From: Escherichia coli
Lineage (GTDB): Bacteria; Pseudomonadota; Gammaproteobacteria; Enterobacterales; Enterobacteriaceae
NCBI RefSeq assembly: GCF_003790525.1
Contig: NZ_CP033635.1
Reading direction: 5' to 3' (one strand)
DNA: 64,000 nucleotides
Position numbers: made by a program. This document shows positions 18,001 to 21,000 of the stretch, one piece after another (within the stretch, counting starts at the first letter, position 1; each line of letters begins with the position of its first letter).

Positions 18001-21000
18001 CTGCTGCCGGAGCTTCAGCTTTTGCTGCCGGAGCCGGCGCTGCCGCTTCCTGTTTCGCAGGAGCTGCCGCAGGCGCTGCGCCTTCAACTTCGAAGATCAT
18101 AATCAGCGAGCCAGTTTTCACTTTATCGCCAACGTTGACTTTCAGTTCCTTCACGACGCCTGCAAACGGAGCCGGAACTTCCATAGAAGCTTTGTCGCCT
18201 TCTACGGTGATCAGTGACTGTTCAGCGGCAACTTTGTCGCCCACTTTCACCATCACTTCGGTCACTTCAACTTCGTCACCACCGATATCCGGAACGTTAA
18301 CGTCTTTCACGCCAGCCGCTGATGCAGGGGCCGCTGCCGGAGCCGCTTCCTGTTTAGCCGCCGGAGCTGCCGCGCCTGCTTCACCCGCGACTTCGAAGAC
18401 CATAATCAGCGAGCCGGTAGACACTTTGTCACCCACGTTCACTTTGATCTCTTTCACGGTGCCAGCAAACGGAGCCGGAACTTCCATAGAAGCCTTGTCG
18501 CCTTCTACGGTGATCAGCGACTGTTCAGCTTCAACTTTATCGCCAACTTTCACCAGGATTTCGGTCACTTCAACTTCGTCGCTGCCGATATCCGGAACAT
18601 TAACGTCTTTTGCCGCCGCAGCCGCTGGTGCTGCTGCCGGAGCTGCTTCTTTCTTCTCTTCTGCCTGAGCAGGTGCAGCGTCTGCTGCACCGTCGGCGGA
18701 ATCGAAAATCATAATCAGTGCGCCGGTCTGGGTTTTATCGCCAACAGAGACTTTGATCTCTTTAACGATACCCGCCTGCGGAGACGGAACTTCCATAGAG
18801 GCTTTGTCGCCTTCTACGGTGATCAGCGACTGTTCGGCTTCAACTTTGTCGCCCACTTTGACCAGGATCTCGGTGATTTCAACTTCATCAGCCCCGATGT
18901 CCGGTACTTTGATTTCGATAGCCATTATTCTTTTACCTCTTACGCCAGACGCGGGTTAACTTTATCTGCATCGATGTTGAATTTGGCGATTGCGTCAGCA
19001 ACCACTTTCTTATCGATTTCGCCACGTTTAGCCAGTTCGCCCAGCGCCGCAACCACGACATAAGAAGCATCAACTTCGAAGTGGTGACGCAGGTTCTCAC
19101 GGCTGTCGGAACGACCGAAGCCATCAGTACCCAGTACGCGGTAGTCGTCAGCCGGTACGTAAGTACGGACCTGCTCAGCGAACAGTTTCATATAGTCGGT
19201 AGATGCCACTGCCGGAGCGTCATTCATCACCTGAGCGATATACGGAACGCGCGGAGTTTCCAGCGGGTGCAGCATGTTCCAGCGTTCACAATCCTGACCA
19301 TCACGCGCCAGTTCGGTGAAGGATGTCACGCTATAAACGTCAGAACCTACGCCGTAATCTTTCGCCAGGATCTCAGCTGCTTCACGGACGTGACGCAGGA
19401 TAGAACCGGAGCCGAGCAGCTGAACTTTACCTTTGCTACCTTCAATGGTTTCGAGTTTGTAGATACCTTTACGGATACCTTCCTCAGCACCTTCGGGCAT
19501 TGCCGGCATGTGGTAGTTTTCGTTCAGCGTGGTGATGTAGTAGTAAACGTTCTCTTGTTTTTCACCGTACATACGCTCCAGACCGTCATGCATGATGACA
19601 GCAACTTCGTAAGCGTAAGCCGGGTCGTAAGAGATACAGTTCGGGATAGTCAGCGACTGAATGTGGCTGTGACCATCTTCGTGCTGCAGACCTTCGCCGT
19701 TCAGGGTGGTACGACCGGAAGTACCGCCGATCAGGAAGCCACGCGCTTGCTGGTCACCAGCCGCCCAGCACAGATCGCCGATACGCTGGAAGCCGAACAT
19801 CGAGTAATAGATGTAGAACGGAATCATCGGCAGATTGTTGGTGCTGTAAGAGGTCGCCGCTGCCAGCCAGGAACAACCTGCGCCCAGCTCGTTGATCCCT
19901 TCCTGCAGAATCTGACCTTTCTCGTCTTCTTTATAGTAAGCAACCTGCTCGCGGTCCTGCGGGGTGTACTGCTGACCGTTCGGGCTGTAAATACCAATCT
20001 GACGGAACAGACCTTCCATACCGAAAGTACGCGCTTCGTCGGCGATGATCGGCACCAGTCGGTCTTTGATCGACTTGTTCTTCAGCATCACGTTCAGAGC
20101 ACGAACGAAAGCGATAGTGGTAGAGATCTCTTTGCTCTGCTCTTCCAGCAGCGCGCCGAAATCTTGCAGGCTCGGCAGCTCAAGCTTCTCGGTGAAGTTC
20201 GGCTGACGGCTTGGCAGATAACCGTGCAGTTTCTGACGCTGCGCGTGCAGATAGGTATGCTCTTCAGAACCTTCCGGGAAGGTGATGTACGGCAGTTTTT
20301 CGATATCGGCATCAGACACCGGCACATTGAAACGGTCGCGGATGTGACGCACGCCGTCCATGTTCATTTTCTTAACCTGGTGCGCGATGTTTTTACCTTC
20401 AGCCGCGTCGCCCATGCCGTAACCTTTAATGGTATGAGCAAGGATTACTGTCGCTTTGCCTTTGGTTTCCTGCGCTTTCTTGAATGCAGCGTAGATTTTC
20501 TTCGGATCGTGACCGCCACGGTTCAGTGCCCAGATCTGCTCGTCAGTCCAGTCTGCAACCAGTGCTGCGGTTTCAGGATATTTACCGAAGAAGTGTTCAC
20601 GAACGTACGCACCATCTTTCGATTTGAAGGTCTGGTAGTCGCCGTCAACGGTTTCGTTCATCAGCTGGATCAGTTTACCGCTGGTATCTTTACGCAGCAG
20701 TTCATCCCAACGGCTACCCCACATCACTTTGATCACGTTCCAGCCAGCACCTTCGAAGATGCCTTCCAGTTCGTTGATGATCTTGCCGTTACCGGTGACC
20801 GGGCCGTCAAGACGTTGCAGGTTACAGTTGATAACGAAGACCAGGTTATCCAGTTTTTCACGGGTTGCGATGGTGATCGCACCTTTGGATTCCGGTTCGT
20901 CCATTTCACCGTCGCCGAGGAATGCGTAAACGGTCTGTTTAGAGGTATCTTTCAGGCCACGGTGTTCCAGATATTTCAGGAACTTAGCCTGGTAAATAGC

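What the first reader, a model, noticed from the sequence alone, without database searches (positions are those of the whole stretch)
18030..18925. Triplicated lipoyl domain of AceF visible as three ~300-bp DNA repeats
Known feature of E. coli E2, noted because near-identical internal DNA repeats can cause assembly or deletion artefacts; all three copies are present here.
Basis: established knowledge. Interest (0 to 1): 0.1.

Follow-up and report, generated by a model that had tools for sequence, protein, structure and literature searches.

The report
The three ~300-base repeats are real and encode the well-known three lipoyl "swinging-arm" domains of the E. coli pyruvate dehydrogenase E2 subunit (AceF), so this is an ordinary textbook feature.

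Summary
Confirmed and ordinary. Window 17033-18925 (minus strand) is aceF, 630 aa. Its DNA is 100% identical to E. coli SMS-3-5 aceF, and it sits in the canonical pdhR-aceE-aceF-lpd operon.

The 5' third of the gene holds three in-frame tandem units (periods 309 and 303 nt; TRF score 999). Each unit encodes a 74-aa lipoyl domain with a DKA lipoyl-lysine motif (K41, K144, K245) and an Ala/Pro-rich linker. The E1/E3-binding domain and the acetyltransferase core follow.

"Near-identical" is overstated:
- The domain cores are 78-86% identical in DNA, and whole units 67-79%.
- The longest exact shared runs are 26-32 nt, clustered in a central segment that is conserved even at synonymous sites.

In 5,426 complete E. 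coli genomes, the lip1-lip2 junction is single-copy in 5,421 and the lip2-lip3 junction in 5,412. No complete genome has a four-domain allele. One (strain 463) has an out-of-register 192-bp in-frame deletion, and others carry small linker indels.

Among the 120 best-scoring sequences in the protein collection, 35 are four-domain AceF sequences, all hybrids joined in the conserved centre or a linker. Several mix species, so at least some are assembly artefacts.

Novelty: already known. Interest: low.

The parts
17033..18925 (-). aceF coding sequence, 630 aa, E2p of the pyruvate dehydrogenase complex
   Evidence: ORF list. NCBIfam NF008814 equivalog at 1102.8 bits. DNA 100% identical to NC_010498.1 136117-138009, annotated aceF. 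PDB 7b9k matched over residues 1-630.
18701..18922 (-). Lipoyl domain 1 core (aa 2-75). The lipoyl-lysine K41 codon is at 18803-18805.
   Evidence: One of three Pfam PF00364 stretches. DKA motif at aa 40-42.
18614..18700 (-). Linker 1 (aa 76-104), Ala/Pro-rich with a charged EEKKE patch
   Evidence: Ala+Pro fraction 0.66. Single copy in 5,421 of 5,426 complete E. coli genomes.
18392..18613 (-). Lipoyl domain 2 core (aa 105-178). The lipoyl-lysine K144 codon is at 18494-18496.
   Evidence: Pfam PF00364 best stretch, aa 107-176. DKA motif at aa 143-145.
18311..18391 (-). Linker 2 (aa 179-205), Ala/Pro-rich
   Evidence: Ala+Pro fraction 0.67. Single copy in 5,412 complete genomes, 5,398 of them with at least 80% coverage.
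18089..18310 (-). Lipoyl domain 3 core (aa 206-279), the innermost domain. The lipoyl-lysine K245 codon is at 18191-18193.
   Evidence: Pfam PF00364. DKA motif at aa 244-246. Matches PDB 1qjo and 2k7v, the solved E. coli lipoyl domain structures, at query aa 206-284 and 206-293.
17948..18088 (-). Linker 3 (aa 280-326), a long Ala/Pro-rich arm with an internal 33-nt sub-repeat
   Evidence: Ala+Pro fraction 0.60. TRF period-33 array at 17980-18060. Length polymorphism of 4 aa in strain PEC148.
17840..17947 (-). Peripheral-subunit (E1/E3) binding domain, aa 327-362
   Evidence: Pfam PF02817 E3_binding, E = 1.9e-16. PDB 4qoy_E and 8oqj.
17039..17731 (-). Catalytic acetyltransferase core domain, aa 399-629, with the DHRVIDG motif at aa 602-608
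   Evidence: Pfam PF00198, E = 2.4e-80. PDB 4n72 matched at aa 382-630. The motif is read from the translation.
18936..18939 (-). GAGG ribosome-binding site for aceF, in the 14-nt gap after the aceE stop codon (18940-18942)
   Evidence: Sequence read. The function is inferred.
17001..17025 (-). G+C-rich hairpin followed by a T-run just after the aceF stop codon, terminator-like
   Evidence: Sequence read. The stem was found by the pattern scan. The function is inferred.
18940..21603 (-). aceE (E1p), the upstream operon partner
   Evidence: ORF list. RefSeq annotation of the identical SMS-3-5 region.
15401..16825 (-). lpd (E3), the downstream operon partner. The true start is at MSTEIK, giving 474 aa.
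   Evidence: ORF list. RefSeq lpdA is 1425 nt. Translation checked.

Best explanation
The three ~300-nt repeats are the coding sequence for the three tandem lipoyl domains, each with its Ala/Pro-rich linker, at the N-terminus of E. coli AceF. [quoted passage not shown]

Each domain carries one lysine in a DKA motif (K41, K144, K245) that is lipoylated. The flexible linkers let each lipoyl-lysine swing between three active sites:
1. At E1 (AceE) it is reductively acetylated.
2. At the E2 catalytic core the acetyl group is transferred to CoA.
3. At E3 (Lpd) it is re-oxidised.

The repeats arose by in-frame tandem duplication. They have since diverged to 78-86% DNA identity. A central segment around the lipoyl-lysine (…[18 protein letters not shown]…) has stayed almost identical even at synonymous sites.

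Shown here: the repeat structure, the domain content, the gene identity, the operon context, and the conservation of copy number across E. coli. Taken from the literature, not tested here: lipoylation, the swinging-arm chemistry, and the redundancy of the three domains.
For: - **Repeat structure:**
- **Domain architecture:** three PF00364 stretches, then PF02817 and PF00198.
- **Gene identity:** NCBIfam equivalogs NF008814 and TIGR01348 both score above their cut-offs. The DNA is 100% identical to annotated aceF of SMS-3-5.
- **Operon context:** pdhR-aceE-aceF-lpdA in the matching RefSeq record.
- **Solved structures:** the full-length chain, the lipoyl domain, the binding domain and the catalytic core are all matched in PDB.
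[quoted passage not shown] E2 proteins contain one to three lipoyl domains joined by flexible linkers (PMC10849603; PMC6270654).
- **Population:** the repeat region is found in 5,423 of 5,426 complete E. coli genomes. Both inter-domain junctions are single-copy.
- **Central segment:** codon identity at same-amino-acid sites is 15-18 of 18-20, against 9.3-10.4 expected from the operon's own codon usage (z = 2.9-3.7). The flanks of pairs involving lip1 sit at expectation.
Against: Nothing found here contradicts it. Three limits apply:
- Lipoylation and enzyme activity cannot be tested in silico.
- The excess synonymous identity in the centre could reflect gene conversion, nucleotide-level selection or incomplete divergence. 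The SNP test for conversion was weak.
Confidence: 0.97

Rival explanations
1. The triplication in this window is an assembly artefact. The true gene would carry one, two or four units, and the assembler collapsed or expanded the repeat.
For: Repeat-driven anomalies do exist in public data. There are 35 four-domain hybrid AceF sequences among the 120 listed hits, several of them inter-species chimeras from metagenome assemblies. One complete genome carries a 566-aa allele.
Against: - The window's aceF is base-for-base identical to a finished genome.
- It has the same 630-aa, three-unit layout as the great majority of 5,426 complete genomes.
- Each junction is single-copy.
- The three units are individually distinct at 78-86% identity, so a k-mer of 33 or more resolves them.
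Confidence: 0.01
2. The repeats function mainly as a DNA-level recombination hotspot that generates adaptive copy-number variation in lipoyl domains. On this reading, the real biology is a contingency-like locus.
For: - Hybrid alleles join exactly in the conserved central segment, as unequal exchange predicts.
- The same four-domain protein, P0005, recurs in at least 5 contigs from different samples and assemblers.
- Across 150 distant E2p representatives, the domain number is 1 in 43, 2 in 97, 3 in 9 and 4 in 1. Domains within one protein are more alike (0.58-0.62) than domains between proteins (0.44), which suggests repeated duplication or homogenisation.
Against: - No four-domain allele was found: both junction probes are single-copy in every complete genome that matched them (5,412 and 5,421 of 5,426).
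- Exact shared tracts are only 26-32 nt.
- Several four-domain sequences mix E. coli-like units with units from other enterobacteria, which points to mis-assembly.
- Copy number is essentially fixed at three in E. coli.
Confidence: 0.02
3. The long ORFs on the opposite strand (17976-18668 +, 230 aa; 16988-18217 +, 409 aa) are real overlapping genes that explain the repeat.
For: They appear in the mechanical ORF list. The first is itself internally repetitive.
Against: - They lie antisense to a gene whose frame is fully explained by very strong homology.
- Their translations are low-complexity Ala/Ser/Thr or Arg-rich strings, as expected from reading GCN-rich codons backwards.
- RefSeq annotates nothing there.
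- They were not searched for homologues.
Confidence: 0.005

Closest known systems
E. coli K-12 AceF (E2p, dihydrolipoyllysine-residue acetyltransferase; PDB 7b9k, 1qjo, 4n72)
   Same: Same gene, same 630-aa length and same architecture: lip1-lip2-lip3, binding domain, catalytic domain. The repeat region is 99.0% identical in DNA to MG1655 (H50).
   Different: This is the SMS-3-5 allele. It differs from K-12 by a few substitutions, for example [10 protein letters not shown] here against APAPAAGVKE in the K-12-like alleles seen. There is no architectural difference.
E2p proteins of other bacteria with one or two lipoyl domains
   Same: Same domain types and the same swinging-arm logic. The lipoyl domain profile matches all of them.
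   Different: Copy number differs. Among the 150 best 50%-identity cluster representatives, 43 have one domain, 97 have two, 9 have three and 1 has four. Three domains, as in E. coli, is the minority state.
SucB (E2o of 2-oxoglutarate dehydrogenase)
   Same: Homologous lipoyl, binding and catalytic domains.
   Different: SucB has a single lipoyl domain. The NCBIfam sucB equivalogs score below their cut-offs here: 349 bits against 449, and 324 against 379.

Membership tests
AceF / E2p long form (NCBIfam NF008814, TIGR01348) | Full-length match to the curated equivalog model, above its cut-off | tested here: met
   NF008814 scores 1102.8 bits (cut-off 722) over aa 1-630. TIGR01348 scores 1041.2 bits (cut-off 552.1).
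AceF / E2p long form (NCBIfam NF008814, TIGR01348) | Three tandem lipoyl domains, each with a lipoyl-lysine in a DKA motif | tested here: met
   Three PF00364 stretches. DKA motifs at aa 40-42, 143-145 and 244-246.
AceF / E2p long form (NCBIfam NF008814, TIGR01348) | Ala/Pro-rich flexible linkers between the domains | tested here: met
   Ala+Pro fraction is 0.60-0.67 in the three linkers. Their flexibility is taken from the literature.
AceF / E2p long form (NCBIfam NF008814, TIGR01348) | Peripheral-subunit binding domain followed by a 2-oxoacid dehydrogenase acyltransferase catalytic domain with the DHRxxDG motif | tested here: met
   PF02817 at aa 327-362 and PF00198 at aa 399-629. DHRVIDG is read in the translation at aa 602-608.
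AceF / E2p long form (NCBIfam NF008814, TIGR01348) | Operon context with E1p (aceE) upstream and E3 (lpd) downstream, under PdhR | tested here: met
   ORFs. RefSeq annotation of the identical region reads pdhR-aceE-aceF-lpdA.
AceF / E2p long form (NCBIfam NF008814, TIGR01348) | Lipoylation of the three lysines, and acetyl transfer to CoA | not testable with these tools
   This is a biochemical property. It is known for the E. coli protein from the literature (PMC8421416).
In-frame tandem DNA repeat | Head-to-tail copies with a period that is a multiple of three, and similarity above chance | tested here: met
   Periods are 309 and 303 nt. TRF score is 999. Exact shared runs are 26-32 nt, against at most 12 in shuffles.
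   Cores are 78%, 78% and 86% identical. Whole units are 79% and 67% identical to the reference copy.

The most novel reading that the evidence does not exclude
Some of the aberrant alleles in public data may be real rather than mis-assemblies. These include the four-lipoyl-domain AceF sequences in E. coli, Salmonella and Citrobacter, and the out-of-register 566-aa allele of E. coli strain 463.

If so, the central ~57-nt tract, which is conserved even at synonymous sites, would act as a live recombination and gene-conversion tract. It would occasionally change the domain number or register in natural Enterobacteriaceae.
Probability: 0.2. Interest if true: 0.25.

Novelty: already known. Interest (0 to 1): 0.06.

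Why it matters
It matters little for discovery. The triplicated lipoyl domain of E. coli E2p is a long-established example of domain duplication and swinging-arm substrate channelling, and this window carries the standard form.

The practical value is as a quality-control flag:
- The repeat is intact here.
- Public assemblies do contain hybrid three-, four- and partial-domain aceF alleles, joined in the conserved centre of the domain.
- aceF length deviations in draft or metagenome assemblies should therefore be treated as suspect until checked against reads.

Tried and rejected
1. **Enumerating every copy-number variant among the 5,426 complete genomes.** The search tool lists at most 60 rows, so I used junction probes and counts instead.
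   - 11 genomes that hold the repeat region gave no linker-2 probe match, and 14 gave only a partial match. These remain unexamined except strains 463 and N41.
   - Strain LR-06, the weakest linker-1 hit, was also looked at. N41 and LR-06 turned out to be small linker indels of 8 and 7 aa.
2. **Gene conversion between repeats.**
   - The codon-identity test shows an excess in the central segment (z about 3).
   - The SNP test on 10 alleles is weak. By my reading of the table, about 8 of 11 lip2 polymorphisms at paralog-divergent sites carry an allele that matches a paralog. One C/T polymorphism sits at the same paralogous offset (+116) in both lip2 and lip3.
   - The numbers are too small, and third-position bias confounds them. 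I do not claim conversion.
3. **Whether four-domain alleles are real.** I fetched contigs for P0005 and P0033. Without reads, a true duplication and a mis-traversed assembly-graph loop give the same sequence, so this is unresolved. It leans towards artefact, because none occurs in complete E. coli genomes and several sequences are inter-species mosaics.
4. **Antisense ORFs over the repeats**. I judged them by-products of the GCN-rich frame and did not pursue them.
5. **Promoter and terminator scan**. Nothing inside the repeats exceeds the shuffle expectation.

Full report
**Observation**

The stated interval lies at the 5' end of a 630-codon ORF on the minus strand, 17033-18925. Several independent tools find the repeat:
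- The repeat finder reports one three-copy family of 300 nt at 18027-18326, 18330-18629 and 18639-18938. Spacing is 303 and 309 nt, and identity to the reference copy is 79% and 67%.
- Tandem Repeats Finder reports one array at 18042-18904: period 303, 2.8 copies, 79% matches, 3% indels, score 999.
- Shared 12-mers within the gene occur almost only at offsets 303 (47), 309 (30) and 612 (28). No other offset has more than 4.
- The longest exact runs shared by two units are 32, 26 and 29 nt. Mononucleotide shuffles of two units give a mean of 8.1 and a maximum of 12.

The upper coordinate is exactly the start codon. The lower one falls inside the third linker.

**What it is**

- Pfam finds three Biotin_lipoyl stretches, an E3_binding domain (aa 327-362) and the 2-oxoacid_dh catalytic domain (aa 399-629).
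- The NCBIfam equivalog for the PDH-complex dihydrolipoyllysine-residue acetyltransferase scores 1102.8 bits against a cut-off of 722. The sucB equivalogs fall below their cut-offs.
- The DNA is 100% identical to aceF of E. coli SMS-3-5, NC_010498.1 136117-138009. The window corresponds to that genome read in reverse.
- RefSeq annotates pdhR-aceE-aceF-lpdA there.
- The protein matches the full-length E. coli E2p chain of PDB 7b9k over residues 1-630. It also matches the solved lipoyl domain (1qjo, 2k7v), the binding domain (4qoy, 8oqj) and the catalytic core (4n72).

**Anatomy**

| Element | Residues | Window coordinates |
|---|---|---|
| Lipoyl core 1 | aa 2-75 | 18701-18922 |
| Lipoyl core 2 | aa 105-178 | 18392-18613 |
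| Lipoyl core 3 | aa 206-279 | 18089-18310 |

- Each core contains one DKA motif. The lipoyl-lysines are K41, K144 and K245.
- The three linkers are 60-67% Ala+Pro.
- A GAGG ribosome-binding site sits in the 14-nt aceE-aceF gap.
- A G+C-rich hairpin with a T-run follows the stop codon.

**How alike the units are**

| Pair | DNA identity (74-codon cores) | Protein identity |
|---|---|---|
| lip1-lip2 | 78% | 80% |
| lip1-lip3 | 78% | 74% |
| lip2-lip3 | 86% | 88% |

- Differences are concentrated at third codon positions: 32, 31 and 20 of the 49, 50 and 31 differing bases.
- 'Near-identical' is therefore an overstatement.
- Identity is uneven. It reaches 93-97% in 30-nt windows over the central …[18 protein letters not shown]… segment and falls to 57-80% at the edges.
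- In that centre, codons at identical-residue sites match in 15-18 of 18-20 cases. The aceE/aceF/lpd codon usage predicts 9.3-10.4 (z = 2.9-3.7). The flanks of pairs involving lip1 are at expectation.
- This fits homogenisation of the centre or nucleotide-level constraint. A SNP-based check on ten alleles was only suggestive, so I leave it as a hint.

**Mechanism**

From the literature, not tested here: each lipoyl domain carries a lipoyl-lysine. This arm is reductively acetylated at E1, delivers the acetyl group to CoA at the E2 core, and is re-oxidised at E3. E. coli E2p has three such domains, giving 72 per 24-mer, and they act redundantly (PMC8421416; PMC10849603; PMC6270654). Work cited in PMC10579247 (Dave, Guest and Attwood 1995, Microbiology 141:1839) reports that lowering the lipoyl domain content reduces growth rate and yield.

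- The repeat region is found in 5,423 of 5,426 complete E. coli genomes.
- A probe across the lip1-lip2 linker is present exactly once in 5,421 genomes.
- A probe across the lip2-lip3 linker is present exactly once in 5,412 genomes, in 5,398 of them at 80% coverage or more.
- No complete genome has either junction twice, so none carries a four-domain allele of the unequal-exchange type.

The variants I looked at were:
- Small linker indels: 626 aa in PEC148, 622 aa in N41 and 623 aa in LR-06.
- One striking case, strain 463 (NZ_CP183105.1). Its aceF is 566 aa because 192 bp are missing between VNVGDKV in the C-terminal half of lip2 and VKVGDKV in the N-terminal half of lip3. This is an out-of-register join at the VGDKV motif, which occurs twice in each domain.

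The larger protein collection gives a different picture:
- The top-scoring hits are 35 AceF sequences of 668-738 aa with four DKA motifs. One of them, P0037 (668 aa), has a partial internal duplication within lip2 rather than a whole extra domain.
- Most of the sequences inspected have the structure expected from exchange in the conserved centre. Examples are lip1-lip2-[lip3N/lip2C]-lip3 and lip1-[lip2N/lip1C]-lip2-lip3.
- Several combine E. coli-type units with units typical of other enterobacteria.
- One identical four-domain protein recurs on contigs from different samples and assemblers.
- One Salmonella four-domain allele sits in a 4.47-Mb record.
- Because complete E. coli genomes show none, I read most of these as assembly artefacts. 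Reads are needed to be sure.

**Wider context**

- Among the 150 best representatives of 50%-identity clusters, 43 have one lipoyl domain, 97 have two, 9 have three and 1 has four. These counts include some truncated sequences.
- Domains within one protein are on average 58-62% identical, against 44% between proteins. E. coli is at the high end, with pairwise identities of 74-88%.
- This agrees with repeated lineage-specific duplication or homogenisation, and is not new in kind.

**Verdict**

The finding is correct and already known. The only correction is that the units are diverged, not near-identical. Nothing about the window's copy is unusual.

Noticed in passing
window 22984-26449 (- strand), between aroP (26975-28348, +) and pdhR: An inserted toxin-immunity island. 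A 593-aa ORF at 24668-26449 fuses a type VI secretion Hcp domain (aa 28-139) to an S-type pyocin domain (aa 309-450) and a colicin/pyocin HNH DNase domain (aa 460-591). It is followed by a colicin/pyocin immunity gene (24381-24665). Two further cassettes follow, each a DNase C-terminal fragment (23974-24213 and 23328-23516) with its own immunity gene (23683-23973 and 22984-23280), arranged like an orphan toxin-tip array. RefSeq names them tssD and bacteriocin immunity proteins.
   Followed up: partly
locus L001 (NZ_CP183105.1, E. coli strain 463), positions 3001-4701: aceF is only 566 aa in this complete genome. An in-frame 192-bp deletion joins the C-terminal half of lipoyl domain 2 to the N-terminal half of domain 3 at the VGDKV motif, out of register with the 303-nt repeat. 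This leaves a 111-aa hybrid with two DKA motifs. Whether it is a real mutation or a consensus error is unknown.
   Followed up: partly
proteins P0001-P0040; loci L006-L009: Thirty-five AceF sequences of 668-738 aa with four DKA motifs, from E. coli, Salmonella, Citrobacter and metagenome assemblies. All that were inspected are hybrids joined in the conserved centre of the domain or in a linker. Some are mosaics of different species' units, which suggests recurrent mis-assembly. None is seen in complete E. coli genomes.
   Followed up: partly
window 21606-21719 (+ strand): Rfam tp2 sRNA family match (103.4 bits, gathering score 50). It lies in the pdhR-aceE spacer, on the strand opposite to the operon.
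   Followed up: no
window 36899-36975, 37379-37448 and 43095-43185 (all - strand): Three Rfam gathering-level matches: naRNA4 (61.2 bits), STnc40 (81.7 bits) and PssrA (102.4 bits). They lie far from the finding and were not examined.
   Followed up: no
E. coli genome collection: A few aceF matches fall on records labelled as plasmids: 6 places with the whole-gene and repeat-region queries, and 3 with each junction probe. In addition, 3 of 5,426 genomes lack the repeat region. One of those, the laboratory strain JCL301, retains only the last 96 nt of aceF next to ampE, so it looks like an engineered deletion.
   Followed up: no
window 17980-18060 (third linker of aceF): A smaller internal repeat lies inside linker 3 (period 33 nt, 2.5 copies, 70% matches). 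It encodes the reiterated AP(A)AAKAE motif. Linker lengths are polymorphic among E. coli strains, with 4-, 7- and 8-aa indels seen.
   Followed up: partly
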